Of a DNA stretch of 64,000 nt, positions 1,648 to 24,024 are shown one piece after another. Below the pieces are notes generated by a model. That model was not told the DNA's origin. It did not search any database and worked only from the letters and a program-made list of their open reading frames with translations. Numbering within the stretch: the first letter of the stretch is position 1; the number at the start of each line of letters is the position of its first letter. This DNA comes from a virus: positions 1 to 64,000 of IMG/VR virus record IMGVR_UViG_3300009388_000001; one strand, 5' to 3'. Position numbers and translations under genes: made by a program.

Positions 1648-1658
1648 GGAGGTCTATT

Positions 1659-2228
1659 ATGGGAGCGCCCAGAACTTCACCTAGTCCCGATAATTACATG
1701 ATCGGTAAAGGTATTTTATCTATAGCGAAATGGGAGGGCGGTGTCGTCGGCGCTTATGCCGATGTTGGCAACTGTCCTTCTTTTGAATATGAGCCGACTG
1801 AAGAATCAAAGGAGCATTTTTCTTCGCGTTCCGCTGTTAAGGAACTGGATGCCGAAACAGTGGTAATGAGCGGTTATAATGTAAAATTTGCACTCGATGA
1901 AATTTCCGTTGAAAACCTGCGTATGTTTCTCAAAGGAACTATGAGCGGTTCGCGTATTATTTATGCAAACCAGAATACCAACCGGTATTATGCACTGAAA
2001 TTTATTGCTGATAATCCTGTCGGACCAAACTGCAATTATGAGTTCTGGAAAGTCAAGGTTACACCGAATGGTGCGTTTTCATTAATCGGCGATGAATTTA
2101 CCGTTCTGAATTTCAGCGGCAAAGGTATGGCGGATCGGGCAAATCATGCGTCCAGTCCGTTCTTTTCGGCAACATTCGACACGACAACCTCGACGACTAC
2201 GACTACGACTACCACGTCCCCATCGTAA
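1659..2228 (+). CDS. major tail (tube) protein with C-terminal poly-Thr tail
   Basis: 189 aa with AAGGAGG just upstream. It is the last gene before the chaperone and tape-measure pair, which is the lambda gpV position. It ends DTTTSTTTTTTTTSPS. Confidence 0.5.
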   Translation: MGAPRTSPSPDNYMIGKGILSIAKWEGGVVGAYADVGNCPSFEYEPTEESKEHFSSRSAVKELDAETVVMSGYNVKFALDEISVENLRMFLKGTMSGSRIIYANQNTNRYYALKFIADNPVGPNCNYEFWKVKVTPNGAFSLIGDEFTVLNFSGKGMADRANHASSPFFSATFDTTTSTTTTTTTTSPS

Positions 2229-2297
2229 AATTGTTGAGTCAATAAACTTCTCCCCCGGGGTAGCCCGGGGGATTTTTTTAAATTCATCTAGGAGAGG

Positions 2298-2848: not shown

Positions 2849-2851
2849 GTT

Positions 2852-7159: not shown

Positions 7160-7569
7160 TGTCAACCACTACCAGTTCAACTACGACTACGACTACGACA
7201 ACTACGACTATTGATTACGATCTTGTAACTGTATGGCCGAACATCACTGAACCGGAATATCCGATTAAAGAATCAACATACCTTCCTTCGCATCATATCG
7301 AAAAAGAAGGTCCTTATGTTCAGGTTCGCAAAAAGTGGACAGCCGGGAAAAAAGAATGGACTCTTGAATGGACAGAAAAAGTTCCGTTGCCGGAATCGGA
7401 TTATCAAATCATTGAAGCATTCTTCCTTGCAAAACAGGGCAGCGCATTTACATGGATTCATTATTCAACAGGTATTTCATATACGGTAATGTTTGATCAG
7501 GATGAACTGGAAGATAACATTATTGTTCCCGGATACAGAACTTTAACTATTAAATTACAGGAAATATAA
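7159..7569 (+). CDS. distal tail protein (lambda gpM position) with N-terminal poly-Thr tract
   Basis: The ATG at 7159 overlaps the tape-measure stop as TAATG. The product is 136 aa and starts MSTTTSSTTTTTTTTTTIDYD. Confidence 0.5.
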   Translation: MSTTTSSTTTTTTTTTTIDYDLVTVWPNITEPEYPIKESTYLPSHHIEKEGPYVQVRKKWTAGKKEWTLEWTEKVPLPESDYQIIEAFFLAKQGSAFTWIHYSTGISYTVMFDQDELEDNIIVPGYRTLTIKLQEI

Positions 7570-8234: not shown

Positions 8235-8661
8235 ACTTTTCACAAGCAAATACGAACGCAATTCAAAGACTCAGGGAACTCACGACTGTAAAAGTCTGTT
8301 TGTGGAAGTAATGAATCATTATGGCAATAATATTAAAGTTTCCGATATTGAAATAATGGCTATTGAACAGGTTGTTGCCATGAAAGCCAGAGACGAATAT
8401 CCATACACTGAAATTGACGCAAAGATTATTGAAAAAGAACTGGCGAGCGGAAGATGGCTTCCTTTATCAGAACCGGAAGTTGGATGCGCTGTAGTTATGG
8501 CGCTAGATCCTATGCATCCTGATTTAGTGCAGCATCTTGGCGTATATATCGGAGAAGGCAAGTTTATTCATATTCTTGAAGATATGGGAGTTATAGTAAG
8601 TCGTATTAATGACAGATTTTTTAATCGCAAAATAAAAGGGTTTTGGAAATGGAATCCTTAA
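8194..8661 (+). CDS. NlpC/P60-family tail peptidase (lambda gpK C-terminal-like)
   Basis: It has a catalytic-Cys context (THDCKSL) and downstream His residues (MHPDLVQHLGVYIG). The start is uncertain: ATG 8194 or GTG 8215. It sits in the gpK position. Confidence 0.55.
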   Translation: MRQELDKVDSILLKLFTSKYERNSKTQGTHDCKSLFVEVMNHYGNNIKVSDIEIMAIEQVVAMKARDEYPYTEIDAKIIEKELASGRWLPLSEPEVGCAVVMALDPMHPDLVQHLGVYIGEGKFIHILEDMGVIVSRINDRFFNRKIKGFWKWNP

Positions 8662-13106: not shown

Positions 13107-13121
13107 AAAAAGGAATGGCTG

Positions 13122-13310
13122 ATGATAAAAACAATTGAAGAAATCACGCAGGAAAAAACTCTGGCTGAAATTATCGTGGCACGCGACAAAATGATTATTG
13201 TTTTGCATACACAAATGATGGAATTTCAGGAAAAAAACAACATGTTGACAAAACAACTTGAGGAAAAAAACAAGATTATCGAAAATCTTTTAAAAGAGAC
13301 GAAGCAATAA
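13122..13310 (+). CDS. hypothetical coiled-coil protein
   Basis: 62 aa ORF co-directional with the late genes, with AAGGAA upstream. Confidence 0.4.
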   Translation: MIKTIEEITQEKTLAEIIVARDKMIIVLHTQMMEFQEKNNMLTKQLEEKNKIIENLLKETKQ

Positions 13311-13338
13311 AAAATAAACTTGCAGGAGGTAACAAACA

Positions 13339-13614
13339 TTGGAACTTTTTACAAAAGAAGACCTCGAGAAAATTGTCGGAGATGCAGTTACAGATTCAAT
13401 GAAACGGGAATTTAAAAGTTTCTATATCCCACCTGAAAAACACTATAAGCAACATGAATTCATCGAAAAACTCATGGATATTTGCGACGATTGGAACAAG
13501 ACGAAACGGAATGTTATTTCGCGATGTATCTTGTATTTTATTGTCGGTTTATTGTTTCTTGGATTCTTAACATGGGGCATTAAAACATTCAATGTTCCTC
13601 AAATCAAAGGATAA
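13339..13614 (+). CDS. putative holin / membrane protein
   Basis: TTG start 9 nt after AGGAGG. There is a single C-terminal TM segment (ILYFIVGLLFLGFLTWGI). It lies directly upstream of the endolysin. Confidence 0.4.
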   Translation: MELFTKEDLEKIVGDAVTDSMKREFKSFYIPPEKHYKQHEFIEKLMDICDDWNKTKRNVISRCILYFIVGLLFLGFLTWGIKTFNVPQIKG

Positions 13615-13618
13615 AATC

Positions 13619-14053
13619 ATGCGGGAAAATTTCAACAAGGGACTGGATATTGTACTGGGACTGGAAAGTCGAACAACAACTAATGATCCTAAAGATCCTG
13701 GTGGTCTTACTGTGTGGGGACTATCTAAAAAATACAATCCGGAAGTTTATGACGGCATGCCGGAATCAGAAATAGAAGAACTTTATTATCGTAAATACTG
13801 GAAAGCGTCCGGCTGCGATGAAGCACCATTCCCTCTTGATATTTGCTTATTTGACGGCGCGGTAAATCCACAGGACGACAAGAAATTGCCCGGCGCCGGA
13901 AACAAGGAAATTCTTTTGCAGAAACCGAATGACTGGAAAGATTTTCTCTTTTTACGAATGGTACGTTACATGAAAAATTCTCAACGTGTTTATGTGCTCG
14001 GCCATATTCAACGCATCATTAAATTATACGAACAGATTTTGTCATTGAATTAA
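13619..14053 (+). CDS. endolysin, GH108-type lysozyme
   Basis: The motif LGLESRTTTNDPKDPGGLTVWGLS matches the GH108 EGG..NDP.DPGG.T..G signature. The ATG at 13619 follows the upstream stop. Confidence 0.7.
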   Translation: MRENFNKGLDIVLGLESRTTTNDPKDPGGLTVWGLSKKYNPEVYDGMPESEIEELYYRKYWKASGCDEAPFPLDICLFDGAVNPQDDKKLPGAGNKEILLQKPNDWKDFLFLRMVRYMKNSQRVYVLGHIQRIIKLYEQILSLN

Positions 14054-14061: not shown

Positions 14062-14130
14062 TGCACGGACTGCCCCTCCGTGCATCTCGCCGCAGTGATC
14101 CGGTACTCTCCGCCGGGTCACTGTTTCTTA
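14062..14130 (+). terminator. two hairpins closing the late structural/lysis operon
   Basis: The first hairpin is TGCACGGA/TCCGTGCA (14062-14084). The second is GTGATCCGG/CCGGGTCAC (14095-14121) and is followed by TGTTTCTT. Confidence 0.4.
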
Positions 14131-14144
14131 GTCAATAAAAATAC

Positions 14145-14172
14145 TTGCACAATAAAAATTCTATGTTATAAA
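14145..14172 (+). promoter_or_regulatory. sigma70-like promoter candidate for the glycosylation island
   Basis: TTGCAC, 16 nt spacer, TATAAA, in the 250-nt gap upstream of the first glycosyltransferase gene. Confidence 0.3.
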
Positions 14173-14306
14173 GTGCAACTTATAAAACTTAGATAACTTA
14201 TAAATACAAGGAGGTGTCGCCATGAAATAACAAACATAAACAAAAGTAATTGCAGTTACTTGACCCTAAACTCTAAAACTTAATACTTCGCATAAGGAGG
14301 CAGCCT

Positions 14307-15593
14307 ATGGCGAAAATTGCTATTCTCACTACTTTCATGAAGTTCGATCCCTGGTATTCGCTAACAGGAATCGTCAAAGATCAGGTCAGAATGCTCACCG
14401 AATACGGAAACGAAGTTTTCCTGTTCGTTAATGAAAGATTCAATGATTCTGAAAATCAGTTTAACATTTCGAATTGTACCCTTCTTAAAAAAATACCTTT
14501 TGCCCATTTAAAAGATTATCAAAGCGGCCAACCGCTTTCCGAAGATCACGAAAAAACAGCCAGAGCAACGTGCGATATACTTGTTGAAACTATCAAAGAA
14601 CTGGAAATCGACACGGTCTTTACGCATGACTTCGTTTTTACCGGCTGGAATAAACCGTACGCCATCGGATTGCAATACATTCAAGATAAATTGCAAAAAG
14701 TTATCTGGCTGCACTGGATTCACAGCATACCTACCCAATTTTCCGATTGGTGGGATATGGCCTCTTATGGTCCGGGTCACAAACTTGTATATCCCAATGC
14801 GACAGATAAAATCCGTGTAGCGGAAAGTTACCGCACAAACACATCATCGGTTCGTATCATTCCGCACATCAAAGATCTGCGTGTCATGTTTAATTTTGAT
14901 GAAGCGACCTGCGAATTGATTGATAATTACCCTGCCATGATGTCGTCAGATATTATACAGATATATCCTGCTTCATCCGACCGCTTCGAAGCCAAACGTG
15001 TTTCTGAAGTTATCAGAATCATGGCCTACATCAAATCCATGGGTCATTCTGTTTGCCTTTTTATTGCAAACCAATGGGCAACGACACAAAAACATTACGC
15101 AAATCTGATGGATTATTACGAGATAGGAAAAAAATACGGTCTCGAACCCGGCAAGGATCTAATCTTTTCATCATTGTTTGAACGTAACGGTAAACAACCG
15201 TACAAAGTCGGCGTTCCTGCAAATATCCTTACCCAGTTAATGATGCTTTCTAACTTATTTGTCTTTCCGACACGCGAAGAAACATTCGGCCTTGTTCTTC
15301 CGGAAGTAGCGCTGGCATCCGGCGCTTTGTGCGTACTGAACCGTTCGTTGCACATGCAAGCAGAAGTGTCCGGCGGCAATACATTATTCTTTGATTTCGG
15401 ATCATATACGCATGATCATCATTGCAATGATCAAGACGACTATTTAAAGCAGGTAGCCATAGTGATCCTTGGCCGGATGAATGAAAACGACGGTATCATG
15501 ACGCGAACATTCATGCGCAAGAAATACAATTACGATAATCTCTACTCCAAATATTACGCTCCTGTCATGGCAGAAACGAGGATATATGTATGA
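14307..15593 (+). CDS. GT-B fold glycosyltransferase (GT1/GT4-like)
   Basis: EX7E-type motif FPTREETFGLVLPEVALASG. Strong AAGGAGGCAGCC upstream. Confidence 0.75.
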   Translation: MAKIAILTTFMKFDPWYSLTGIVKDQVRMLTEYGNEVFLFVNERFNDSENQFNISNCTLLKKIPFAHLKDYQSGQPLSEDHEKTARATCDILVETIKELEIDTVFTHDFVFTGWNKPYAIGLQYIQDKLQKVIWLHWIHSIPTQFSDWWDMASYGPGHKLVYPNATDKIRVAESYRTNTSSVRIIPHIKDLRVMFNFDEATCELIDNYPAMMSSDIIQIYPASSDRFEAKRVSEVIRIMAYIKSMGHSVCLFIANQWATTQKHYANLMDYYEIGKKYGLEPGKDLIFSSLFERNGKQPYKVGVPANILTQLMMLSNLFVFPTREETFGLVLPEVALASGALCVLNRSLHMQAEVSGGNTLFFDFGSYTHDHHCNDQDDYLKQVAIVILGRMNENDGIMTRTFMRKKYNYDNLYSKYYAPVMAETRIYV

Positions 15594-16738
15594 GACGACT
15601 TGTATATCTTTACGTATCGAACGGTTCTGCCGCGCCGGATAAAATTCCAAAATGGTCGCCGGAAATACAATCCAGAGATCCTTTTGCCGCACATTTTAAT
15701 GAAGAAGGGTTCTGTTATTTATTCAAGGAATTTATCAAAAAAAACTTATTTGATGAAATTCTTGTAATAATTGAATCTAACCGATCACCGGGATCCTTTG
15801 TCATCTCCAAAAACATCAACGGACTTGTCGTGCCTCATGTTGAATGTCTTTGGCCGTTTTTGCGTCCTGACGATATCATGTGGGCGCGCGGCGGTTGGCG
15901 GTCATGGTGGGCATTTTTGAATCAATGGCACGAAATGGATAGATGGTTGCTGTTTTACCGTGCCGCTTCGAATCGCGGAGCATGGACATTCTGGGACATT
16001 GTTCTCGATGATCTCATTGAGCAATGCGATCAAGATAGTATCGGCCGATTTTATTATCCGATCCGCAAACCGATCAATCCTGAACTTTTTTATTTCATGC
16101 CGAATGTTCAACGCGAATACGACCTGATGATCGGAGCGTCCCATGTTCATGATAAAAAGGGACAATTCAAAATCCTTCCCATACTGTTGGAATACAGAAA
16201 ACAATTCAGCAGACACGATCTGAAATGTATTATGCCCGGCAGTTTATCTCATGGAATCGGAACATCGCATATCACCGAAATGATAAACTGCTATGATCTG
16301 GATATCAGACTGACCGGAATGATCCCGCGCAATGAACTTTGCGAATTGTATAATCAATCAAAGCTTTTCGTACATTGTGGCGTTGCCGGCCAGAATGACC
16401 GCGGCCCGTTGGAAGCAATGGCCTGTGGAACGCCTATCACCTTATCGAATGAGCAATTCCATAGTCCGGCAATCAGGAGCGATCATACTGTATTTTCGTT
16501 TCATTTCGATGTCGATAATCCGGCGCAGGCGGCAAAGCAAATCGATTTTGCCTTGCGTGCTTCTTCCATATTCCCTTCTTTTAATGAAGGAACACGTGAT
16601 TATTTTGATGTTACGCATGGCATCGAAGCAATCTATCCGCAATACGCAGCCTTATTTAACCGAATTTTTCAAACTCCACACAAGGAACGCCAGAAGTGGT
16701 TCGATCTGCTTCTGGGAAAGGAAATATCATGGCACTAA
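15590..16738 (+). CDS. GT-B fold glycosyltransferase
   Basis: C-terminal motif LFVHCGVAGQNDRGPLEAMACGTPI. ATGA overlap with the upstream gene. Confidence 0.6.
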   Translation: MRRLVYLYVSNGSAAPDKIPKWSPEIQSRDPFAAHFNEEGFCYLFKEFIKKNLFDEILVIIESNRSPGSFVISKNINGLVVPHVECLWPFLRPDDIMWARGGWRSWWAFLNQWHEMDRWLLFYRAASNRGAWTFWDIVLDDLIEQCDQDSIGRFYYPIRKPINPELFYFMPNVQREYDLMIGASHVHDKKGQFKILPILLEYRKQFSRHDLKCIMPGSLSHGIGTSHITEMINCYDLDIRLTGMIPRNELCELYNQSKLFVHCGVAGQNDRGPLEAMACGTPITLSNEQFHSPAIRSDHTVFSFHFDVDNPAQAAKQIDFALRASSIFPSFNEGTRDYFDVTHGIEAIYPQYAALFNRIFQTPHKERQKWFDLLLGKEISWH

Positions 16739-17334
16739 AACATCCGATCATGACTAAAACAGCTTTAAGGGATTACGAAATAGGAGATTACACATATGGC
16801 GTACCAAAAATTATCGGAAAAGGAAGTCTTACAATTGGTAAATTTACCTCAATTGCCGATGATGTCACCATTCTTTTCAATGTCGAACATCGGCACGATT
16901 GGACGACAACTTACCCCTTTTCCGCACTTTTCGCCGACGCCCAACACATCGCAGGACACCCTCGAGATAAAGGACCTATCATTATCGGAAATGACGTATG
17001 GATTGGTCATAAAGTTACCATCATGTCAGGAGTTACGATTGGCAATGGCGCGGTTATCGGAGCAAATGCGGTTGTTGCAAGAGATGTCGATGCTTATTCT
17101 GTGGTTGCCGGAAACCCCGCCGTCCATAAAAAATTCCGATTCGATGAATCGTGGTGTGACTATTTACAGCGGAAGTTAAAATGGTGGGAGTTTCCGCTGG
17201 ATAATATTCTCGCCCATATCGAAGATATTCTCAAGCCTCCCGGCGAACATCTTTTTGGTCTGCGCAAAACAATTGAGGAAGAAATAGAAGCGGAAAGGAA
17301 AAGAAAGGAGGCTGAGCAGAATGAAGAGTCTTGA
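16729..17334 (+). CDS. hexapeptide-repeat acetyltransferase (left-handed beta-helix, Vat/CatB-like)
   Basis: Hexapeptide repeats IGNDVWIGHKVTIMSGVTIGNGAVIGANAVV. The ATG at 16729 overlaps the upstream stop. Confidence 0.75.
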   Translation: MALKHPIMTKTALRDYEIGDYTYGVPKIIGKGSLTIGKFTSIADDVTILFNVEHRHDWTTTYPFSALFADAQHIAGHPRDKGPIIIGNDVWIGHKVTIMSGVTIGNGAVIGANAVVARDVDAYSVVAGNPAVHKKFRFDESWCDYLQRKLKWWEFPLDNILAHIEDILKPPGEHLFGLRKTIEEEIEAERKRKEAEQNEES

Positions 17335-17905
17335 AATTACTTATCCGGAAAGATTCTTTGCAAGAAGATCTGGCATTGCCTGGCGCTCGGAAGTGTTGTG
17401 TCCGGTCATCATGGATATTCTGCAGCCAAAAAGCGTTATCGATGTCGGCTGCGCGATCGGAGATTTTGTTAAATGGTTCAATGACCACAAAATCGATTCT
17501 GTCGGCATTGAAGGTTCCCAGGGCGCGCGGAAATATGCCATGACCGATAAAATCATCTATCATGACCTACGCATTCCGATTCTTTCGCCTGTTAAAGTTG
17601 ACCTGGCCATGTCCATCGAGGTTGCCGAACACATTGAACCGGAATACGCGGAAATCTACGTTAAAAACCTGACTATGATGTCCAATAATCTGCTTCTGAC
17701 AATCGCCGGTCCCGAACAGAAAGGACATTCTCATGTCAACCTGCAACCAATAGAATACTGGGATGACCTTTTCTTCAAGTTCAATTTTAGTCGACGAAAA
17801 ATAATCGAATCAAAATTCAAAGGCGCATTGCATCTGCATCGGGCAAACAGATGGGTCAATGCGATCACTAATAATCTTTGTTTTTATCAAGGAGGCAGCC
17901 AATGA
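17321..17905 (+). CDS. class I SAM-dependent methyltransferase
   Basis: Motif I VIDVGCAIGDF, and later LLLTIAGPE. Confidence 0.7.
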   Translation: MKSLEITYPERFFARRSGIAWRSEVLCPVIMDILQPKSVIDVGCAIGDFVKWFNDHKIDSVGIEGSQGARKYAMTDKIIYHDLRIPILSPVKVDLAMSIEVAEHIEPEYAEIYVKNLTMMSNNLLLTIAGPEQKGHSHVNLQPIEYWDDLFFKFNFSRRKIIESKFKGALHLHRANRWVNAITNNLCFYQGGSQ

Positions 17906-18468
17906 AAACACCAGCAGAATATAGGGAAATGGAATTTATCGAATTATTTATTGCTCTGGCCAGATTATTCAAACCGAAAGTCTATGTCGAGCTTGGCACA
18001 AAGAAAGGTTACACGCTAAGGCGCATGGCTGATTATGTCGAAAAAGCAATCGGCATCGATTTTAATCATCTGAATCTCGGCATCAACAATGTAACGCATA
18101 TACAAAGTACAACACTTGAGTATGCCGAATCTTTAAAAGGCCGTGAACCTTTTATAGATATGCTTTTCATCGATGCCGATCATTCTTCGTTGCATGCTAT
18201 GAACGATGTTATCGCATACTTGCCTTATGTCAAAAACGGTACCGGTCTGATTCTCATGCATGACACTCACCCGATCATACCGGAATTGCTTGCTGATGGA
18301 TATTGCCATGATGCATGGCGCGCAGCTGACGATCTTTGGCATCTAACAAGTGCAATTTATCTGGAAATCGTCACGCTGCCCGGACCATGGGCCGGACTTT
18401 CCATTCTGCGAAAACGCGGAGATCATCATTTATCCTGGAAATCTCAGGAGGTCATGAATGAACTATAA
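17902..18468 (+). CDS. class I methyltransferase (O-methyltransferase-like)
   Basis: Motifs VYVELGTKKGYT and MLFIDADHS. GGAGGCAGCC upstream and an ATGA overlap. Confidence 0.55.
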   Translation: MKTPAEYREMEFIELFIALARLFKPKVYVELGTKKGYTLRRMADYVEKAIGIDFNHLNLGINNVTHIQSTTLEYAESLKGREPFIDMLFIDADHSSLHAMNDVIAYLPYVKNGTGLILMHDTHPIIPELLADGYCHDAWRAADDLWHLTSAIYLEIVTLPGPWAGLSILRKRGDHHLSWKSQEVMNEL

Positions 18469-19216
18469 ATCACCGGATATTCTAATTGATATTACAATGA
18501 CTGCCGTGCGCCGTCCGGAAACAATAAAGCGAACGTTGAATTCGTTTTACCGGAATATGCTCGCGCCGATCATTGATAAATGCCGTCTTATTGTCAATAT
18601 CGATCCGATCGGTGATGACATGGCCTCGCATGATATCTGTGAAATTTTTTCAGCGTACTTTAAGCACTACATGGTTAACATGCCGACGGAATCATCATTT
18701 CCTAAAGCCTTTCAATGGACATGGCTGCGATCTGATGCACCATGGGTTTTTCATCTGGAAGATGACTGGGAACTACTCAATGAAATCCCCATCGACTTTA
18801 TGATGGCACTCATGGAAAATTTTCCGCAATTGGCTTCCTTGCGCCTGCCATTTTTTAACGCTGCAGCAACAACAATGAAAAACTGGAATCTGTTCTTCCC
18901 ATGGAACGGACATTATTTTTCTTGTCCGCCTGATCTGCGCAAGACAGCGGGATTTTGCGGCCACCCTTCCCTGCTTCGTGGCGAATTTGTGCGAAGATGC
19001 GCTCCGCTTATCGATATCCGACTCAATCCGGAAAAACAATTTCACGGCGGCAACGATCCACTGGTCAAGGAAGTTCTGCGCTGGGAATACGGTGTTTTTA
19101 GCAGCCCGAATCATCCAAAGATGATCAAGGATATCGGCATTGAATGGAGAAACGCAAACAGATTTCAGAAGAAAGGCAGCAAGGCTTTCTTTACGGAATG
19201 GGAGAAAACATCATGA
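18458..19216 (+). CDS. putative GT-A-like glycosyltransferase
   Basis: N-terminal ILIDITMTAVRRPETIKRTLNSF and an acidic HLEDDWELL motif. The call is weak. Confidence 0.35.
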   Translation: MNYKSPDILIDITMTAVRRPETIKRTLNSFYRNMLAPIIDKCRLIVNIDPIGDDMASHDICEIFSAYFKHYMVNMPTESSFPKAFQWTWLRSDAPWVFHLEDDWELLNEIPIDFMMALMENFPQLASLRLPFFNAAATTMKNWNLFFPWNGHYFSCPPDLRKTAGFCGHPSLLRGEFVRRCAPLIDIRLNPEKQFHGGNDPLVKEVLRWEYGVFSSPNHPKMIKDIGIEWRNANRFQKKGSKAFFTEWEKTS

Positions 19217-20067
19217 ATATTTTAGTTACTGGTTCAAGTGGATTTATCGGAACGCATCTTATTAAAGAACTCATGAAACGACATGCCGTAACTTGTTACG
19301 ATCTTACGAATGGCAACGATATCCGCAATCTCCATGATCTTGACAAAGCATTCGAGACCTCGCAATGCTCCACAGTCGTTCACCTAGCTGCGCGCGCGGG
19401 CGTAAGGCGTGGCAATGACTATCCGCACGAATACATGACAACCAATATTGAAGGCACATGGAATGTCGGCAAGATGTGCGAGAAGTACGGTTGCCGGCTC
19501 ATTTCGTTCAGCTCGTCATCGGTATACGGCGATGCAAAACCGCCGACCAAAGAAGATGATCCCAAAAATCCAATTTCTCTTTACGGCATGACAAAACTTA
19601 TGGGTGAACATGTCGTCAATCAATTAACTATCCCCACAGTAATTATCAGACCGTTTACTGTTTATGGAGAAAATGGCCGCGGCGACCAGGTGTTCTACAA
19701 ATGGTTGAATCAGTACAAGGCCGGGAAACCGATAACTGTATTCGGTGATGGTGACAGTTTACGCGGATATACTTACGTCAAGGATATTGTCTGGGTAATT
19801 AACAGGTTGATCGAATCAAAGTGGAATACTTTGCATGATGATTTCAACATTGGTGGCCGTGAAGTTATGACACTGAACAATATATTAAACATATTTAAAA
19901 ACAACACCCCAACCTTGAAATTCAGTCATGTGGAAAGACCGAATCATGACATCAAGGAAAATTATGCAGATATCAGCAAGGCCACTTCGAAACTAGGATT
20001 CATGCCACTTAAAAAATTCTCGGAAAATCTCACATCTATTATCAACAAGGAGCTTCATTATGCATAA
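19213..20067 (+). CDS. NAD-dependent nucleotide-sugar epimerase/dehydratase (extended SDR)
   Basis: Motifs MNILVTGSSGFIGTHL, SSSSVYG and YGMTK. ATGA overlap with the upstream gene. Confidence 0.8.
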   Translation: MNILVTGSSGFIGTHLIKELMKRHAVTCYDLTNGNDIRNLHDLDKAFETSQCSTVVHLAARAGVRRGNDYPHEYMTTNIEGTWNVGKMCEKYGCRLISFSSSSVYGDAKPPTKEDDPKNPISLYGMTKLMGEHVVNQLTIPTVIIRPFTVYGENGRGDQVFYKWLNQYKAGKPITVFGDGDSLRGYTYVKDIVWVINRLIESKWNTLHDDFNIGGREVMTLNNILNIFKNNTPTLKFSHVERPNHDIKENYADISKATSKLGFMPLKKFSENLTSIINKELHYA

Positions 20068-20911
20068 AATAGGTATCATCGGCTGTGGTTTTGTCGGTTC
20101 CGCTGTCGCTGCCGGTTTCTCACTTAAAGCGGATATCAAAATTTATGACATCAAACCAGAAAAATGCACACATTCTTTTTCTGAAGTCTGTAATCAGGAT
20201 ATTTTGTTTCTATGCCTTCCTACCCCGATGCGCAAATCAGACGGTTTGCCGGAAATGTCTTTCATTTACAATGCTGTCGCAGACATTAACAGGGAGGTCG
20301 CGCAAGTAAAAACCCTGATTCCCAAAATCGTTGTCATCAAGAGTACAGTACTTCCCGGAACAAACAAAACATTGCAGGCAAGTTATCCTTACCTCAGTTT
20401 TGTTTCCAATCCGGAATTTCTGACCGCCAGATCCGCGCGGCTTGATTTCATTAATGCCTCGCGCATTGTGCTTGGTGGCATTGATCGTAATTCAATACAC
20501 GCAGTTGCGGACCTCTATCGGACAATATGCATACACACTCCGATTTATTATTGTACATGGGAAGAAGCGGAACTGGTCAAGTACATGGCCAATTGTTTCT
20601 TTGCTCTTAAAATTTCCTATCTCAATGAAATCTACAAGATCTGTCAGATTATCGATTGTGATTACAGTTTTTTAAAAAGAATGTGGCTGGCGGATGGTCG
20701 GATCGGAAATTCGCATCATGAAGTTCCCGGGCATGACGGAGATTTCGGTTTCGGCGGCACTTGTTTTCCAAAAGACATTGCCGCTTTTGTTGAATATGCA
20801 AAATCGATCGGAGCTCCGATCGAGACACTCAATGCCGCGCACAAGGTTAACGAAAAAGTACGCAATAAAAAAGACTGGCAAATATTCGACGATATGGAGG
20901 ATAAATCATGA
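20060..20911 (+). CDS. UDP-glucose/GDP-mannose 6-dehydrogenase family protein (short form)
   Basis: Motifs IGIIGCGFVGSAV and NPEFL, and the catalytic-Cys motif GGTCFPKDI. At 283 aa it appears to lack the usual C-terminal domain. Confidence 0.7.
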   Translation: MHKIGIIGCGFVGSAVAAGFSLKADIKIYDIKPEKCTHSFSEVCNQDILFLCLPTPMRKSDGLPEMSFIYNAVADINREVAQVKTLIPKIVVIKSTVLPGTNKTLQASYPYLSFVSNPEFLTARSARLDFINASRIVLGGIDRNSIHAVADLYRTICIHTPIYYCTWEEAELVKYMANCFFALKISYLNEIYKICQIIDCDYSFLKRMWLADGRIGNSHHEVPGHDGDFGFGGTCFPKDIAAFVEYAKSIGAPIETLNAAHKVNEKVRNKKDWQIFDDMEDKS

Positions 20912-21783
20912 AATTGCTTTTTGTTTACGACAACTCAATCGGTATTCATTATCTCAAACAGGCCTTATCCTGCGTTCCGCCGGAAAAAGCGGAAATCAAG
21001 ATCATCAAGTTATCTGAATATCCGGCATTCGATGACTCGCAATTTGATGGCCTGATCTACAATACTTTCCCTGATGAAAGTCATCGGCATAAATTCCGGA
21101 AAGATCTGATCGCCGTGACTGACGAAAAATTCATAAGTTTCGCATCTAAAAAGAAATTCCTGTTGCTTGATTCCCACGATGACGGCAACAATGATGCTTT
21201 TTGCCGTTTTGGCTATCCGAAATATCCTCGAATCAAGCTTGCGCCAGGCACAAAAATGCAATCCCTGCTTAACATTGCGATTGAAGTCCCCTTTGCCGTC
21301 AATGTGCAATTCATGAATACCACGAAGCAAAAAAGCGTACCGCTGGTTTACTGCGCAAAACTCGACGGATACGAAACCGATATCCGGAAAAAAGTATTCG
21401 ACGCGATTGCACCGTTCAACCCATTTATCAGCCGTCTTGATCTTTACGCTTATGCCGACGTATTGACTAAAGCAAAAATCGTTGTCGTTGCGCCCGGATG
21501 GGGCGAGGTTTGCTTAGCGCATTACGAAGCGCTGGCGGCCGGCGCCATGCTCTTCGCGCACGAATCCGTACGCAACTACAAATTGTTTCCTTTTGCCGAT
21601 CTGATAGAAGACAAACACTACGTCCTCTATAACCTTGAAAACATCACAGAAAAATTGACTGATCTCATGGCCAATTCGTTCAAAGTAGCCAGGATTTCCA
21701 AAGCAGGAAGCAAGGCGTTTTACAAAGGATACAATCTCAGCAAAACAGCCGAACAGATTATCGATTTCTTTAGTGAGAGGTGA
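20908..21783 (+). CDS. putative glycosyltransferase (GT-B C-terminal-like)
   Basis: Motif VVVAPGWGEVCLAHYEALAAGAMLFAHE. The call is weak and rests mainly on context. Confidence 0.3.
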   Translation: MKLLFVYDNSIGIHYLKQALSCVPPEKAEIKIIKLSEYPAFDDSQFDGLIYNTFPDESHRHKFRKDLIAVTDEKFISFASKKKFLLLDSHDDGNNDAFCRFGYPKYPRIKLAPGTKMQSLLNIAIEVPFAVNVQFMNTTKQKSVPLVYCAKLDGYETDIRKKVFDAIAPFNPFISRLDLYAYADVLTKAKIVVVAPGWGEVCLAHYEALAAGAMLFAHESVRNYKLFPFADLIEDKHYVLYNLENITEKLTDLMANSFKVARISKAGSKAFYKGYNLSKTAEQIIDFFSER

Positions 21784-21787
21784 ATTC

Positions 21788-22030
21788 ATGACTCAAGCCA
21801 TGAATTATCATAAAAACGATGAAAACACTTTAACAACAAAACTTTTAAAGGGAGCAAAATACCATATGAATATTATTGAATCTCTAAAATCTTTTTTGCA
21901 AGGATCTGAAGAAAGAGCAATGCATAAACTTCTTGCTTCTATGAAAGCACAGCAAGCAAGCAATGGTTGGTATCGGCGCTTTACCGGTAGGTCTAAAACA
22001 TTCAAAAAGAATCAAAGAAAAGGTCTGTAA
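21788..22030 (+). CDS. hypothetical small basic protein
   Basis: 80 aa ORF between glycosyltransferase genes. No motif recognised. Confidence 0.3.
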   Translation: MTQAMNYHKNDENTLTTKLLKGAKYHMNIIESLKSFLQGSEERAMHKLLASMKAQQASNGWYRRFTGRSKTFKKNQRKGL

Positions 22031-22041
22031 AGGAGTAAAAT

Positions 22042-23049
22042 ATGATATCAGGAAAACTCTCAATTATTATTCCCTTTGCTCAAGAACATCCCCAAATCGC
22101 CTTTACCGTACAATCCATATTTGCCGAACTGCATGACCGCTGCGACTTTGAAATCATTGTCATTGATAATCATTGTAATGAGTTGCAAGAACAACTGGAT
22201 AAACAGGGCAATAAACGCGACAAAGGCGGAGAATATATGAAGTCACTGGCCGGAGGTTCGCGGCCATGGCTAAAATATCTGGCCTATGACACAAAACTTT
22301 CCCACTGGCAGGCAAAGAATATGGGCGTGGCCAATTCTGATGGTGAATTTCTGTGGTTCGTCGATTCACATTGCATCCCATCACGAAACGCATTATTTGA
22401 TATGTTTTCTTATTATAGAGAGCATCACAAAGAATTGCATGGCACTCTGCATATGCCGCTTGCCTATATGCTCGAAAAACCTGGCGTCGAACTCATTTAT
22501 AAACTTGTCACTCTGCCGGAAAACGGCGTAGTGCATTACAGTTTCACACGCTACAAGCAATCCGACAAACCGTATCAAGTACCCTGCATGTCCACCTGTG
22601 GAATGATGATGTCCCGTGAGATCTATGATAAACTCGGCGGCTGGCCGGAAGAACTGGGAATTTATGGAGGCGGAGAACATTTTATCAACTTTACCCTGGC
22701 TGTTTTGGGATATTCCATTAATATTTTCCCTTCCTGGCCGCTTTACCACTATGCCGCTCCGCGCGGATATCATTGGAATTACGACGATTATCACCGCAAC
22801 CGATGCATAGCAACATTTATGTTCGGCGGCGATGCGTGGGCGTACAAATATATCATGAACATCAAACCGCACGGAGCAAAGCATGATGATTATAAAAAAG
22901 CTATTTTATCCACAATTATCGGTTCGAAGTCATGCATAAAACATCGTGAATTAATTAAAAATAGACAGGTTACGACGATTGCTTACTGGTTACAAAATCA
23001 AGCAATCATTCTCCCTGATGATTTGATTGATATGAATTATGTGGAGTAA
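22042..23049 (+). CDS. GT-A glycosyltransferase with DxH and Gal/GalNAc-T-like motifs (GT2/GT27-like)
   Basis: Motifs LSIIIPFAQE, EIIVIDNHC, FVDSHC (DxH) and YGGGEHFINFTL. Compare FLDSHCE and WGGENLEISFR in animal polypeptide GalNAc-transferases. Confidence 0.65.
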   Translation: MISGKLSIIIPFAQEHPQIAFTVQSIFAELHDRCDFEIIVIDNHCNELQEQLDKQGNKRDKGGEYMKSLAGGSRPWLKYLAYDTKLSHWQAKNMGVANSDGEFLWFVDSHCIPSRNALFDMFSYYREHHKELHGTLHMPLAYMLEKPGVELIYKLVTLPENGVVHYSFTRYKQSDKPYQVPCMSTCGMMMSREIYDKLGGWPEELGIYGGGEHFINFTLAVLGYSINIFPSWPLYHYAAPRGYHWNYDDYHRNRCIATFMFGGDAWAYKYIMNIKPHGAKHDDYKKAILSTIIGSKSCIKHRELIKNRQVTTIAYWLQNQAIILPDDLIDMNYVE

Positions 23050-23055
23050 GTAATT

Positions 23056-23712
23056 ATGCAAATAGGCGTTATTATTCCTATTATTCAAGATGTTTTCATA
23101 AATGGATTATTGAACAATATTAAAAATAACACAGTCCAACCTGCTAAAATAATTATCGTTGACAATAGCAGGAATAATATTATATTAAGCACAAAGAAAA
23201 TGCGTTCTAGCATTAAAGTCTTTAGACCAAACATTCCTCTTGGCGTAAATGCATCATGGAACTATGGCATCCATGAATTGGTACAGGATGTTGATTTAGT
23301 TTCGGTATTGAATGACGATTTGTTAATTGAAAATTATTTTTTTGAAAAGTTAACAAAATTGGTGTCGCTGCATAAGGATGCAGCCGTGTTTTGTCCGGAA
23401 ACGGTAGAAACACCGGAAATGATGTTAAAAACTCCGGCGTTGGGGCTGGAAAAACGTGATGTGATGTATAGAAGGGAGGGGTGGGCCTGGACGATCAGGT
23501 CATCGGTTGCGGTAAAAATTCCCCCTATACCTGAAAAGCTCAAGACATGGTTTGGCGACGACTGGTACTGGACACATTGCCAGAGACTAAAACAGCCGTG
23601 GATAAAGATGCTTAATAACTGGTGCTATCATTACGTTGGCCAGAGTAACAAAATTGTTAAAGCTCACAGTACGCTTAAGGCTGAGAGAGAATTGTTTAAA
23701 GCCTTGACATAA
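23056..23712 (+). CDS. GT-A (GT2-like) glycosyltransferase
   Basis: Motifs IGVIIPII, KIIIVDNS and VLNDDLLI (DxD-like). Confidence 0.55.
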   Translation: MQIGVIIPIIQDVFINGLLNNIKNNTVQPAKIIIVDNSRNNIILSTKKMRSSIKVFRPNIPLGVNASWNYGIHELVQDVDLVSVLNDDLLIENYFFEKLTKLVSLHKDAAVFCPETVETPEMMLKTPALGLEKRDVMYRREGWAWTIRSSVAVKIPPIPEKLKTWFGDDWYWTHCQRLKQPWIKMLNNWCYHYVGQSNKIVKAHSTLKAERELFKALT

Positions 23713-23787: not shown

Positions 23788-24024
23788 TCAAAAATGGGCG
23801 CTCATGGGTTTCCTGTGAGCGCCTTTGTTTTTTCTATTATATATTTGAATCCATTCTGCACGAAAAGTATCCTGTTCGATAATAGATAATTTTTGTTTTA
23901 GCCTGAACCAATTGTATGTTTTTTCGAAATTATGCCATGACGGATCGCATCCCATGGCAACGATAGCCTGCTGCTGCTCTTTGATGATTTCGTTTAATGA
24001 TTTACCTGTTTCCACTTTTGCCAT
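23788..24024 (-). CDS. hypothetical protein
   Basis: Last ORF of the minus-strand array. ATG at 24024. Confidence 0.4.
   Translation of the reverse strand: MAKVETGKSLNEIIKEQQQAIVAMGCDPSWHNFEKTYNWFRLKQKLSIIEQDTFRAEWIQIYNRKNKGAHRKPMSAHF

What the first reader, a model, noticed from the sequence alone, without database searches (positions are those of the whole stretch)
14307..23712. Twelve-gene nucleotide-sugar, glycosyltransferase and tailoring island at the end of the late operon; candidate virion glycosylation system
**Seen in sequence**
- The island is one co-directional, mostly overlapping gene string with its own promoter-like region and flanking hairpins.
- It contains two GT-B glycosyltransferases, a hexapeptide acetyltransferase and two SAM methyltransferases.
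- It also contains a possible GT-A enzyme, an SDR epimerase/dehydratase, a short UDP-glucose 6-dehydrogenase-family enzyme and a possible GT-B enzyme.
- It ends with a small basic protein and two GT-A/GT2 enzymes.
- I saw no flippase, polymerase, undecaprenyl-phosphate transferase or TM-rich protein.

**Established knowledge**
- The dehydrogenase plus epimerase pair can supply uronic-acid or pentose donors.
- Acetyl and methyl transferases tailor sugars.

**Inference**
- All parts look cytosolic and are expressed with late genes.
- Together with the poly-Thr tags on two tail proteins, this points to a multi-sugar, methylated or acetylated O-glycan built on virion proteins rather than to lysogenic conversion of a cell-surface polymer.
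- A system of this size on a lambda-like siphovirus would be unusual.
Basis: partly seen in the sequence, partly recalled or inferred. Interest (0 to 1): 0.8.

Follow-up and report, generated by a model that had tools for sequence, protein, structure and literature searches.

The report
Phage mucin-type glycosylation island with poly-threonine tags
An uncultivated tailed phage carries twelve soluble sugar-handling genes, and comparison with about 80 related phage contigs indicates they coat threonine-rich tags on virion proteins with sugars, using an enzyme related to the one that starts animal mucin glycosylation.

Summary
Twelve co-directional ORFs (14307-23712) encode 5-6 glycosyltransferases, an acetyltransferase, two methyltransferases, an epimerase most similar to UDP-glucuronic acid 4-epimerases, and a truncated UDP-glucose dehydrogenase. 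None has a membrane segment. The tail tube ends in TTTSTTTTTTTTSPS, and the next tail protein starts MSTTTSSTTTTTTTTTT.

New comparative evidence supports the virion-glycosylation reading:
- **Phage context.** ORF1 (GT4-like) was found only in phage contexts wherever I inspected it. It pairs with ORF11 in 34 of 38 fully covered loci.
- **Enzyme family.** An ORF11 family profile matches animal polypeptide GalNAc-transferases best among solved structures (E 3e-8). The DxH motif, GGE motif and third His are invariant.
- **Tag association.** 56 of 82 ORF1-bearing loci carry Thr-dominated tracts, against 0 of 120 random viral loci (p 4e-30) and 2 of 35 related tail modules that show no island gene.
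- **Tag position.** The tracts sit on virion proteins (tube, cement-like, gpJ-like). They are co-oriented with ORF1 and often lie at the extreme C-terminus or directly upstream of ORF1.

The system shares no sequence similarity with the known mycobacteriophage Che8 glycosylation operon. I rate it a new variant of a known kind. It is well supported in silico, but no glycan has been observed. Late expression and sugar identities remain inferred.

The parts
1659..2228 (+). Major tail (tube) protein, 189 aa. Its last 15 residues are TTTSTTTTTTTTSPS (nt 2181-2225). This is a candidate glycan acceptor tag.
   Evidence: The protein matches phrog_807, major tail protein (E 2.5e-28, N-terminal part only). 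It is a distant homolog of Chi-like phage tube proteins. Sequence is shown. Tube homologs in L032, L096, L341 and L354 also carry S/T tails or linkers.
7159..7569 (+). Minor tail protein directly after the tape measure gene, 136 aa. It starts MSTTTSSTTTTTTTTTT (nt 7162-7209). This is the second candidate acceptor tag.
   Evidence: The ATG overlaps the tape-measure stop codon as TAATG. The homolog in L008 has a similar tag, the one in L009 has a short tag, and those in L010-L017 have none.
13339..14053 (+). Lysis genes that separate the tail genes from the island: a one-TM holin-like protein (13339-13614) and a GH108 endolysin (13592-14053).
   Evidence: The endolysin matches Pfam Glyco_hydro_108 (E 6.6e-14). 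The holin-like protein has a single hydrophobic segment.
14092..14306 (+). Hairpin at 14092-14124, followed by an AT-rich spacer with a weak promoter-like site (14260-14287) and a ribosome-binding site (AAGGAGG) before ORF1.
   Evidence: The hairpin has no proper T-run and the promoter match is only 9/12.
14307..15593 (+). ORF1, 428 aa. GT-B glycosyltransferase resembling retaining GT4 enzymes. It is the marker and first core gene of the island.
   Evidence: The AlphaFold model has pLDDT 94. Top Foldseek hits are MshA and BshA (E 3.5e-13). The family has 699 metagenomic homologs, 91 IMG/VR matches and only 8 hits in GTDB species genomes. All 8 are MAGs and those with enough flanking DNA lie in phage contexts.
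15590..16738 (+). ORF2, 382 aa. GT-B glycosyltransferase of Pfam group 1.
   Evidence: PF00534 E 1.3e-8. Present in 23 of 38 fully covered loci.
16729..17334 (+). ORF3, 201 aa. Hexapeptide-repeat O-acetyltransferase of the Vat/CatB type.
   Evidence: Hexapep E 2e-11. NCBIfam Vat family E 2e-37, below the family cut-off. Present in 10 of 38 loci.
17321..17905 (+). ORF4, 194 aa. Class I SAM methyltransferase.
   Evidence: Methyltransf_23 E 2e-5, slightly below the gathering score. Present in 24 of 38 loci.
17902..18468 (+). ORF5, 188 aa. Class I SAM methyltransferase (Methyltransf_24).
   Evidence: PF13578 E 5e-11. Present in 12 of 38 loci.
18458..19216 (+). ORF6, 252 aa. GT-A fold glycosyltransferase with no Pfam hit of its own.
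   Evidence: The AlphaFold model has pLDDT 94.5. Foldseek matches K4CP, GnT-I, SpsA, POMGnT1 and TarP (E about 4e-9). The family has 436 homologs, some carrying PF00535. Present in the minimal island of L006 and in 26 of 38 loci.
19213..20067 (+). ORF7, 284 aa. Extended SDR most similar to UDP-glucuronic acid 4-epimerases.
   Evidence: Epimerase E 4e-49. Best solved relatives are 6zl6/6zld (E 9.5e-39) and MoeE5. 6ZLD is cited in papers on the B. cereus UDP-GlcA 4-epimerase. Present in 6 of 38 loci.
20060..20911 (+). ORF8, 283 aa. UDP-glucose 6-dehydrogenase core: NAD-binding and central domains with the catalytic Cys, but no C-terminal UDP-binding domain.
   Evidence: The short form and the Cys motif are conserved in six divergent relatives. 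Present in 6 of 38 loci.
20908..21783 (+). ORF9, 291 aa. Function unknown, possibly related to a GT-B C-terminal domain.
   Evidence: The only hit is Glyco_trans_1_2, E 1.4e-4, below threshold. Homologs occur in L002, L041, L043 and L044 and are not tied to ORF8.
21788..22030 (+). ORF10, 80 aa, basic (pI 10.4). Not conserved and doubtful as a part of the system.
22042..23049 (+). ORF11, 335 aa. GT-A glycosyltransferase resembling the catalytic domain of polypeptide GalNAc-transferases (GT27), with no lectin domain and no membrane anchor. It is the second core gene and the best candidate for the enzyme that puts the first sugar on Thr/Ser.
   Evidence: PF00535 E 5.7e-12. A family profile searched against PDB sequences ranks PGANT9 first (E 3.4e-8), then GalNAc-T10, T4, T7 and T12, ahead of TarP. 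D108, H110, G210, G211, E212 and H236 are invariant. Present in 34 of 38 loci. The family has 157 representatives at E <= 1e-10 among 1.84 billion.
23056..23712 (+). ORF12, 218 aa. Small GT-A (GT2-like) glycosyltransferase.
   Evidence: PF00535 E 1.4e-5. Present in 17 of 38 loci.
23796..23824 (+). Terminator-like hairpin (13 pairs, 8 G-C) followed by TTGTTTTTTC. It closes the + strand block.

Best explanation
The island is a phage-encoded, cytoplasmic protein O-glycosylation system. Its substrates are the phage's own virion proteins, which carry genetically encoded Thr/Ser-rich tags.

**Proposed mechanism (inferred).**
1. During virion production, a soluble enzyme transfers a first sugar from a host UDP-sugar onto the hydroxyls of the poly-Thr tags. 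The tags sit at the tube C-terminus and at the N-terminus of the tail protein encoded next to the tape measure gene. ORF11 is the most likely enzyme because it resembles polypeptide GalNAc-transferases. ORF1 is the alternative.
2. The other glycosyltransferases (ORF1, ORF2, ORF6, ORF12 and perhaps ORF9) extend the glycan.
3. ORF3 acetylates it, and ORF4 and ORF5 methylate it.
4. ORF8 and ORF7 may supply uronic acids (GlcA, GalA).

The result would be a mucin-like sugar coat along the tail, and in relatives also on capsid cement-like proteins and fibre proteins.

**Shown.** Gene content, folds, solubility of the proteins, the tags, and the cross-genome association between ORF1 and the tags.

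**Inferred.** The acceptor, the order of steps, the sugars, the timing of expression and the benefit. Plausible benefits are shielding, protease resistance, colloidal stability or adhesion.
For: 1. **Recurrence.** The island recurs at the end of the structural block in related phages of about 72 kb. Content varies around a constant ORF1 + ORF11 core.
2. **Tag association.** 56 of 82 ORF1-bearing loci have Thr-dominated tracts, against 0 of 120 random IMG/VR loci (Fisher p 4e-30). After collapsing ORF1 at 60% identity, the figure is 22 of 34 clusters.
3. **Tag geometry.** Of 103 tagged ORFs, 102 are on the ORF1 strand, 91 lie upstream of ORF1, and 55 have the tract within 6 residues of the C-terminus. 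In 17 loci the tagged gene ends within 150 bp of ORF1.
4. **Tagged proteins are virion proteins.** They include tube homologs, a Phage_cement_2-like family of about 165 aa, and gpJ-like Phage-tail_3/Rcc01698_C proteins.
5. **Matched control.** In 35 loci holding the same tail-gene family with no island gene in range, only the two closest relatives carry tags.
6. **ORF11 family.** Its profile matches polypeptide GalNAc-transferases best among solved proteins. The three metal-ligand positions and the GGE motif are invariant.
7. **No membrane machinery.** All island proteins are soluble, and there is no flippase, polymerase or initiating phosphotransferase in the 64 kb window.
8. **Phage contexts only.** Every ORF1-family locus with enough flanking DNA to judge was in a phage context, including the 8 hits in 185,579 species genomes, all of them MAG contigs, some too short to assess.
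9. **Precedent.** Mycobacteriophages glycosylate capsid and tube C-termini with their own glycosyltransferases (PMC12363180, PMC12619734).
Against: - No glycan, glycopeptide or expression data exist, and the phage is uncultivated.
- In this window the island is separated from the tail genes by the lysis cassette, a hairpin and an AT-rich spacer. This layout resembles independently expressed morons.
- 26 of 82 ORF1 loci show no tract within 10 kb, including the minimal-island locus L006.
- Poly-Thr tracts are common in viral contigs without ORF1 nearby: only 1 of 120 poly-Thr loci had it, although those loci are short.
- ORF11 also resembles TarP, a prophage enzyme that glycosylates wall teichoic acid (E 3.1e-5 with the single sequence, 3.6e-6 with the profile). 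The PDB is rich in GalNAc-transferases, which may favour them in the ranking.
- The ORF1 loci are related to one another, so they are not fully independent observations.
Confidence: 0.7

Rival explanations
1. The island is a conversion module that modifies a host cell-envelope polymer (LPS, capsule or teichoic-acid-like polymer). This would change receptors or exclude other phages, as gtrABC or prophage TarP do. Under this reading the Thr-rich tags are unrelated flexible linkers.
For: - The island sits after the lysis genes, with its own spacer, weak promoter-like site and flanking hairpins, like a moron.
- The window encodes Rep, ParA and ParB, so a plasmid-like carrier state is plausible.
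- The N-terminal half of ORF11 resembles TarP and TarS.
- PHROG hits carry labels such as 'GtrB-like O-antigen conversion'.
Against: - There is no membrane protein, flippase, polymerase or lipid-carrier transferase in the island or anywhere in the window.
- This reading does not explain the very strong association of ORF1 with co-oriented Thr-tagged virion genes, which are often directly adjacent.
- The ORF1 family is absent from isolate genomes and was seen only in phage contexts.
Confidence: 0.12
2. The glycosyltransferases hypermodify phage DNA by glycosylating hydroxymethylated bases, protecting it from host nucleases.
For: - Fold-level hits of ORF1 in the viral structure library include a cyanophage 'DNA alpha-GT' and a Bacillus phage SP-15 glycosyltransferase. 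Both are generic GT-B matches with at most 15% identity.
- Phage glycosyltransferases are often DNA-modifying enzymes (PMC12619734).
Against: - No dCMP/dUMP hydroxymethylase or TET/JBP-type oxygenase was found among the window ORFs scanned. Only an ordinary ThyX and a DNA methyltransferase are present.
- Five or six glycosyltransferases plus acetyl- and methyltransferases are far more than DNA glycosylation needs.
- This reading does not explain the Thr-tag association.
Confidence: 0.04
3. The island makes a glycoconjugate that is not attached to the tags. Examples are glycosylation of host proteins during takeover, or a free or non-covalently bound glycan. Under this reading the tags are either left bare or modified by host enzymes.
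For: - 26 of 82 ORF1 loci have no tag within 10 kb.
- The substrates of all the transferases are unknown.
Against: - Gene adjacency and co-orientation with tagged virion genes recur in many independent lineages.
- ORF11 resembles polypeptide GalNAc-transferases, which act on Ser/Thr-rich peptides.
- There is no precedent for either alternative.
Confidence: 0.08

Closest known systems
Mycobacteriophage virion glycosylation (Che8 gp108-110, Corndog gp38, Myrna; Freeman et al. 2023, as summarised in PMC12363180 and PMC12619734)
   Same: - The glycosyltransferases, with methyltransferase activity, are phage-encoded and soluble.
- They decorate the phage's own capsid and tube subunits at their C-termini.
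- The genes are not essential structural genes and are variably present among relatives.
   Different: - There is no detectable sequence similarity between any island protein and Che8 gp108-110.
- Che8 capsid and tube proteins end in ...KTGS and ...SDGS and have no poly-Thr tag.
- Here the island is larger (12 genes against 3), includes sugar-nucleotide enzymes, and is built around a GT4-like plus GT27-like core.
- MAG labels suggest Desulfobacterota-type hosts, but the host is unknown and these phages are not actinophages.
Mucin-type O-glycosylation initiated by polypeptide GalNAc-transferases (CAZy GT27) in animals and apicomplexans
   Same: - ORF11 aligns with the GT27 catalytic domain over about 240 residues. 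It keeps the DxH motif, the GGE(N) motif and the third His.
- The presumed acceptors are homopolymeric Ser/Thr stretches, as described for mucin-like targets (PMC3417536).
- Further transferases would then extend the glycan.
   Different: - ORF11 has no ricin-type lectin domain and no membrane anchor, so it would act in the cytoplasm and not the Golgi.
- Similarity is remote (E 3e-8 with a profile, 0.13 with the single sequence).
- The sugar donor is unknown.
Serine-rich-repeat adhesin glycosylation in Gram-positive bacteria (GtfA/GtfB and follow-on transferases; from my own knowledge)
   Same: - It is a cytoplasmic, stepwise O-glycosylation of long Ser/Thr-rich repeats.
- It uses soluble GT-B (GT4) and GT-A enzymes that take UDP-sugars.
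- The enzyme genes sit next to the substrate gene.
   Different: - Sequence searches of ORF1 found no GtfA-like match.
- There is no GtfB partner and no accessory Sec system.
- The substrates are virion proteins.
Virus-encoded glycosylation machinery of giant viruses (chlorovirus capsid glycans, mimivirus fibril glycosylation clusters; from my own knowledge)
   Same: - The virus carries its own multi-gene set of glycosyltransferases, sugar-nucleotide enzymes and methyl/acetyl tailoring enzymes.
- The set decorates virion surface proteins independently of host membrane pathways.
   Different: - Those are eukaryotic viruses.
- The shared features with ORF1 are at fold level only, for example a chlorovirus GT-B hit at rank 16.
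Prophage serotype-conversion glycosyltransferases (TarP of S. aureus phages; gtrABC)
   Same: - They are GT-A enzymes encoded near the lysis end of phage genomes.
- The N-terminal half of ORF11 resembles TarP.
   Different: - Those enzymes modify cell-wall polymers and, for gtr, need membrane partners.
- None is encoded here, and they are not linked to Thr-tagged virion genes.

Membership tests
Che8-type mycobacteriophage virion glycosylation operon | Glycosyltransferases homologous to Che8 gp110 / Corndog gp38 (and to gp108, gp109) | tested here: not met
   BLASTP of Che8 gp108-110 against all island proteins gave a best E of 0.09. Profiles of the ORF1 and ORF6 families gave no hit.
Che8-type mycobacteriophage virion glycosylation operon | Glycans attached to the C-termini of capsid and tail tube subunits | not testable with these tools
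   This needs mass spectrometry of virions. At sequence level, the tube C-terminus here carries a poly-Thr tag.
Polypeptide GalNAc-transferases (GT27), for ORF11 | GT-A catalytic domain with a DxH metal-binding motif in place of DxD | tested here: met
   D108-S-H110 is invariant in 44 family members and aligns with the DSH motif of PGANT9.
Polypeptide GalNAc-transferases (GT27), for ORF11 | Gal/GalNAc-T motif (WGGEN...) and a third metal-ligand His | tested here: met
   G210, G211, E212 and H236 are invariant. In the profile alignment they line up with 'iWGGEnle' and 'vGHifrkR' of PGANT9.
Polypeptide GalNAc-transferases (GT27), for ORF11 | C-terminal ricin-type lectin domain | tested here: not met
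   The protein is 335 aa and the only Pfam hits are GT2-type catalytic domains in all 44 members.
Polypeptide GalNAc-transferases (GT27), for ORF11 | N-terminal membrane anchor (type II Golgi protein) | tested here: not met
   There is no hydrophobic segment.
Polypeptide GalNAc-transferases (GT27), for ORF11 | Transfers GalNAc from UDP-GalNAc to Ser/Thr of peptides | not testable with these tools
   This requires an enzyme assay.
GT4-type retaining GT-B glycosyltransferases, for ORF1 | Two-Rossmann-domain GT-B fold | tested here: met
   The model has pLDDT 94. MshA, BshA and other GT4 structures match at E 1e-13 to 1e-9.
GT4-type retaining GT-B glycosyltransferases, for ORF1 | Sequence signature of Glycos_transf_1 / Glyco_transf_4 | tested here: inconclusive
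   The window protein has no Pfam hit. Many family members carry PF00534 or PF13439.
GtfA/GtfB serine-rich-repeat protein glycosylation | GtfA-type enzyme (GT4 with an inserted beta-domain), a GtfB partner and an accessory Sec export locus | tested here: not met
   GtfA does not appear among the PDB sequence hits of the ORF1 profile or in the top 50 fold hits. No Sec genes are in the window.
UDP-glucose 6-dehydrogenase, for ORF8 | NAD-binding domain and central domain with the catalytic Cys | tested here: met
   PF03721 E 2.8e-20 and PF00984 E 2e-22. GFGGTCFPKD aligns with the catalytic motif of 4a7p.
UDP-glucose 6-dehydrogenase, for ORF8 | C-terminal UDP-binding domain | tested here: not met
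   The protein ends about 20 residues after the central domain. Solved enzymes are 390-490 aa. The short form is conserved in relatives.
UDP-glucuronic acid 4-epimerase, for ORF7 | Extended SDR closest to characterised UDP-GlcA 4-epimerases | tested here: inconclusive
   Best solved relatives are 6zl6/6zld (E 9.5e-39) and MoeE5, ahead of GalE, RmlB and UXS. Substrate specificity cannot be read from this alone.
gtrABC-type O-antigen conversion | GtrA flippase and a membrane-embedded GtrC-type transferase | tested here: not met
   No multi-pass membrane protein exists in the island or in the window.
Phage DNA glycosylation (hypermodified bases) | An enzyme that makes hydroxymethylated bases (ThyA-like hydroxymethylase or TET/JBP oxygenase) next to the glycosyltransferase | tested here: not met
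   None was found among the ORFs scanned. Only ThyX is present. ORFs under about 100 aa were not all scanned.

The most novel reading that the evidence does not exclude
A lineage-spanning family of uncultivated phages runs a self-contained, cytoplasmic, mucin-type O-glycosylation pathway.

- A lectin-less, anchor-less relative of polypeptide GalNAc-transferases (ORF11) would act together with a phage-restricted GT4 enzyme (ORF1).
- Together they would build methylated or acetylated glycans on short, genetically portable poly-Thr tags fused to the termini of tube, cement and fibre proteins.
- This would make the tag plus the enzyme pair a modular 'glyco-tagging' system.
- It would also place a GT27-like initiating enzyme in the prokaryotic virosphere.
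- As an extra, the domain-truncated dehydrogenase (ORF8) might oxidise sugars by a mechanism that does not use the canonical UDP-binding domain.
Probability: 0.45. Interest if true: 0.9.

Novelty: new variant of a known kind. Interest (0 to 1): 0.78.

Why it matters
Glycosylated virions are documented for only a few mycobacteriophages. If this reading is right, three things follow.

- **Distribution.** Virion glycosylation would be widespread in environmental phages. I found at least 91 IMG/VR contigs with an ORF1-family match and hundreds of metagenomic homologs. It would also have arisen independently, with different enzymes.
- **A readable marker.** Poly-Thr/Ser tags would predict which virion proteins are coated. 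Gene finders currently mis-call these tracts.
- **A compact toolkit.** A soluble enzyme pair plus a 10-15-residue tag could be tested directly in E. coli. It could serve to glyco-engineer proteins or therapeutic phages. It also bears on where polypeptide GalNAc-transferase-like enzymes occur outside eukaryotes.

Tried and rejected
- **No isolate to lean on.** Nucleotide searches of the island and the structural region against GenBank phages found no match. A protein search with ORF1 found none either.
- **ORF11 in cultured phages.** ORF11 finds only TarP genes and one distant homolog, in Tunturiibacter phage Tunturi_4. That phage has no tags on its capsid or tube proteins.
- **Helicase-based negative control.** I tried to obtain island-less close relatives through the neighbouring UvrD helicase. 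Only two loci came back, and both carry the island.
- **L013 as a negative control.** L013 is a close relative without the tail-protein tag. It failed as a control because its gpJ gene is 2361 codons long and the contig ends right after it.
- **Rest of this phage's contig.** Look-ups for it gave nothing useful.
- **ORF9 as the missing UDP-binding domain of ORF8.** Rejected. The two genes do not co-occur across loci, and ORF9 gives only a weak Glyco_trans_1_2 hit.
- **ORF1 as a GtfA-type enzyme.** Rejected. Sequence searches found no such match, and GtfA is not in the top 50 fold hits.
- **Homology to the Che8 operon.** Rejected.
- **Reverse association.** I asked whether poly-Thr-coding loci have ORF1 nearby. 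Only 1 of 120 did, so the tags are not specific to this system, although those loci are short.
- **Literature.** Searches for phage GT27-like enzymes or poly-Thr virion tags found nothing relevant in the held library. The primary Freeman et al. paper is not held.

Full report
**1. What the window is**

The + strand from 4 to 14053 is the late structural block of a siphovirus-type phage:
- the end of the major head protein;
- a tube protein (1659-2228);
- a tape measure protein (2852-7159);
- small tail proteins;
- a gpJ-like tip protein (8643-13106);
- a one-TM holin-like protein;
- a GH108 endolysin.

The minus strand from about 24000 to 59000 holds replication and maintenance genes. These include a VRR-NUC nuclease, a UvrD-like helicase, a primase-polymerase, an SNF2-type helicase, a Rep initiator, ParA, ParB, ThyX, a DNA methyltransferase and SSB. 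The small terminase subunit follows on the + strand.

No GenBank phage is similar at the DNA level. The same sequence occurs on a 14-kb contig assembled from a public sequencing run and, according to the protein index, on a 73.6-kb JGI contig. The phage is therefore uncultivated.

**2. The observation**

The twelve ORFs are there, co-directional and mostly overlapping.
- ORF2 is a group-1 GT-B glycosyltransferase.
- ORF3 is a hexapeptide acetyltransferase of the Vat/CatB type.
- ORF4 and ORF5 are class I methyltransferases.
- ORF7 is an extended SDR.
- ORF8 is a short member of the UDP-glucose dehydrogenase family.
- ORF11 and ORF12 are GT2-type GT-A enzymes.

Two ORFs without Pfam hits were resolved by structure prediction on deep alignments. 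ORF1 (pLDDT 94) has a GT-B fold closest to the retaining GT4 enzymes MshA and BshA. ORF6 (pLDDT 94.5) has a GT-A fold. ORF9 has only a sub-threshold hit. ORF10 is not conserved in any relative.

No island protein has a membrane-like segment, and the whole window lacks multi-pass membrane proteins.

The flanks are a hairpin at 14092-14124, an AT-rich spacer with a weak promoter-like match, and a strong terminator-like hairpin at 23796-23824.

The two tags are real. The tube protein ends ...FDTTTSTTTTTTTTSPS. The gene that starts at the tape-measure stop codon (TAATG, 7159) begins MSTTTSSTTTTTTTTTT. Both use mixed ACN codons, so they are not simple DNA repeats.

**3. The island is a recurrent phage module with a two-gene core**

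ORF1 has 699 homologs in the 5.8-billion-protein collection and ORF6 has 436. Almost none are named.

Contexts of three ORF1 homologs (71%, 55% and 50% identity) all show the same layout: tail genes, then the island, then a UvrD helicase on the opposite strand. One of them has a minimal island of ORF1 + ORF6 + ORF11.

A scan of IMG/VR found 91 matches, of which 80 were fetched. In the 38 loci with at least 9 kb on both sides of ORF1, the other genes are present as follows:

| Gene | Loci (of 38) |
|---|---|
| ORF11 | 34 |
| ORF6 | 26 |
| ORF4 | 24 |
| ORF2 | 23 |
| ORF12 | 17 |
| ORF5 | 12 |
| ORF3 | 10 |
| ORF7 | 6 |
| ORF8 | 6 |
| ORF9 | 3 |

The system is therefore ORF1 + ORF11 plus a variable set of extending and tailoring enzymes.

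In 185,579 species genomes only 8 loci match. All are MAG contigs with inconsistent taxonomic labels. Desulfobacterota-type labels predominate on the long contigs. Those with enough flanking DNA to judge carry other island genes or phage tail genes; the shortest (L347, 1.5 kb) holds only the ORF1 fragment. I found no cellular, non-phage context for this family.

**4. The key test: do the tags travel with the island?**

I defined a Thr-dominated tract as at least 7 Thr and at least 10 Ser+Thr in a 12-residue window, within an ORF of at least 60 codons.

| Set | Loci with a tract | Total sequence |
|---|---|---|
| Non-redundant ORF1 loci | 56 of 82 | 1.38 Mb |
| Random IMG/VR loci (arbitrary 14-mer) | 0 of 120 | 1.06 Mb |
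| Metagenome loci (at least 9 kb) with a homolog of tail gene 7569-8234 and no island gene in range | 2 of 35 | not totalled |

- The difference between the first two sets gives Fisher p = 4e-30.
- Collapsing ORF1 at 60% identity still gives 22 of 34 clusters with a tract.
- Of the 103 tagged ORFs, 102 are on the ORF1 strand and 91 lie upstream of ORF1.
- In 55 of them the tract reaches within 6 residues of the C-terminus. Typical endings are ...TTTTTTA, ...TTTTTV and ...TTTTTAP.
- In 17 loci the tagged gene ends within 150 bp of ORF1.
- The two tagged loci in the matched tail control are the closest relatives of the window (tube 65-68% identical). Their island region lies outside the fetched DNA.

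The tagged proteins are virion proteins:
- tube homologs in L032, L096, L341 and L354;
- a recurrent family of about 165 aa with weak similarity to phage cement proteins, often encoded immediately before ORF1;
- gpJ-like proteins with Phage-tail_3/Rcc01698_C domains.

The window's tube protein matches 'major tail protein with Ig-like domain' families only in its N-terminal part. The tag thus sits where relatives display a surface domain.

The association runs in one direction. Of 120 IMG/VR loci containing ten consecutive Thr codons, only one had ORF1 within the fetched locus, which was short. Poly-Thr tracts therefore also occur in many viruses without this system nearby.

**5. What the enzymes suggest**

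**ORF11.** A profile of 44 ORF11-family sequences was searched against all PDB chain sequences. It ranks the polypeptide GalNAc-transferases first: PGANT9 at E 3.4e-8 over profile positions 3-241, then T10, T4, T7 and T12. TarP follows at 3.6e-6.

The family's invariant residues are D108-x-H110, G210-G211-E212 and H236. They align with the DxH motif, the WGGEN motif and the third metal-ligand His of those enzymes. Polypeptide GalNAc-transferases put the first sugar on homopolymeric Ser/Thr stretches of mucin-like proteins (PMC3417536).

ORF11 lacks their lectin domain and membrane anchor, so it is not a GT27 member in the full sense. It is still the best candidate for the initiating polypeptide glycosyltransferase.

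The family is small and distinct: 157 representatives at E <= 1e-10 among 1.84 billion. Caution is needed, because the PDB holds many GalNAc-transferase structures and Pfam places all these proteins in the same Glycos_transf_2 family.

**ORF7.** Its best solved relatives are 6zl6/6zld and MoeE5. 6ZLD is cited in papers on the B. cereus UDP-glucuronic acid 4-epimerase. That MoeE5 is also a UDP-GlcA 4-epimerase is from my own knowledge.

**ORF8.** It keeps the catalytic Cys motif but lacks the UDP-binding domain. This short form is conserved in six divergent islands. A uronic-acid branch (UDP-Glc to UDP-GlcA to UDP-GalA) is therefore plausible but not secure. How ORF8 works is unexplained.

**6. 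Rival readings**

- **Host-envelope conversion.** The moron-like placement, the plasmid-type maintenance genes and the TarP resemblance favour it. Against it, there are no membrane partners, it does not explain the tag association, and the ORF1 family is absent from isolate genomes.
- **DNA glycosylation.** It lacks the required base-hydroxymethylating enzyme. The enzyme set is far larger than that function needs.
- **Modification of host proteins or a free glycan.** This cannot be excluded, but it has no specific support.

**7. Comparison with what is known**

The nearest known kind is virion glycosylation in mycobacteriophages. There, phage glycosyltransferases decorate the C-termini of capsid and tube subunits and shield them from antibodies (PMC12363180, PMC12619734).

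I fetched the Che8 genome. Its gp108-110 share no detectable similarity with any island protein. Its capsid and tube proteins have no poly-Thr tag. This system therefore works like the Che8 system but is not a member of it.

Mechanistically it also resembles mucin-type O-glycosylation. It further resembles the cytoplasmic glycosylation of serine-rich-repeat adhesins, which I cite from my own knowledge and for which no GtfA-type similarity was found.

I found no paper in the held library describing GT27-like enzymes or poly-Thr virion tags in phages. The library is incomplete.

**8. Verdict**

It is extended in four ways: a defined ORF1 + ORF11 core, a candidate initiating enzyme, a strong genome-wide tag association, and a wide distribution in uncultivated phages.

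Everything rests on sequence comparison. No glycan, transcript or activity has been seen. I put the virion O-glycosylation reading at about 0.7.

Noticed in passing
window 20060-20911; also L002 15193-16116, L019 17795-18667, L024 17861-18688, L084 15314-16120, L004 16417-17190, L074 16452-17225: This is a conserved 'mini' UDP-glucose dehydrogenase of about 260-285 aa. It has the NAD-binding and central domains and the catalytic Cys motif, but no C-terminal UDP-binding domain. How it binds a substrate is unexplained.
   Followed up: partly
window 33375-34319 (-), 34533-35174 (-), 43539-45233 (-): A Rep-type initiator, ParA and ParB are present, and no integrase was found among the ORFs scanned. 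The phage may persist as a plasmid-like prophage.
   Followed up: no
L004/L005 4884-7787 (+): This is a stop-free + strand ORF containing about 650 residues of mucin-like S/T sequence, inside a tail gene block. The public gene calls instead place two ORFs on the opposite strand here. Such tracts are easily mis-annotated.
   Followed up: partly
L006 15654-19025 (-); L348 3281-5443 (+): Relatives carry intein-containing genes. One is a UvrD-like helicase of 1123 aa. The other is a large terminase subunit of 720 aa on a contig from the same sample as the window.
   Followed up: no
L431 (Tunturiibacter phage Tunturi_4, PP885687) 1567-2565: A cultured phage of an Acidobacteriota host encodes a distant ORF11 homolog (22.5% identity, E 2e-9). 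It has a DNH motif and lies between the large terminase and portal genes. Its capsid and tube proteins carry no S/T tags.
   Followed up: partly
L002 7333-8055 and 8059-8565; L023 4079-4591; L039 9335-9976; L088 8452-8973; L094 5807-6331: This is a recurrent protein family of about 165 aa with weak similarity to phage cement proteins (PF09956, E 2.5e-4). Each member ends in a poly-Thr/Ser tail and is usually encoded immediately upstream of the ORF1 homolog.
   Followed up: partly
L218-L337 (IMG/VR loci with ten consecutive ACN codons): Poly-Thr-coding DNA is common in viral contigs, including giant-virus MAG contigs. Five of these loci also hold tube-protein homologs of the window. Only one has ORF1 within the short locus.
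   Followed up: partly
window 37722-38387 (-), 38830-40449 (-): A flavin-dependent thymidylate synthase (ThyX, E 2e-48) and a 539-aa DNA methyltransferase-like protein lie in the replication block.
   Followed up: no
L355 1365-1841 (+): In a close relative, a 159-aa ORF just upstream of the major head protein gene carries the C-terminal Thr tag, and the tube protein does not. The tag appears to move between virion proteins among relatives.
   Followed up: no
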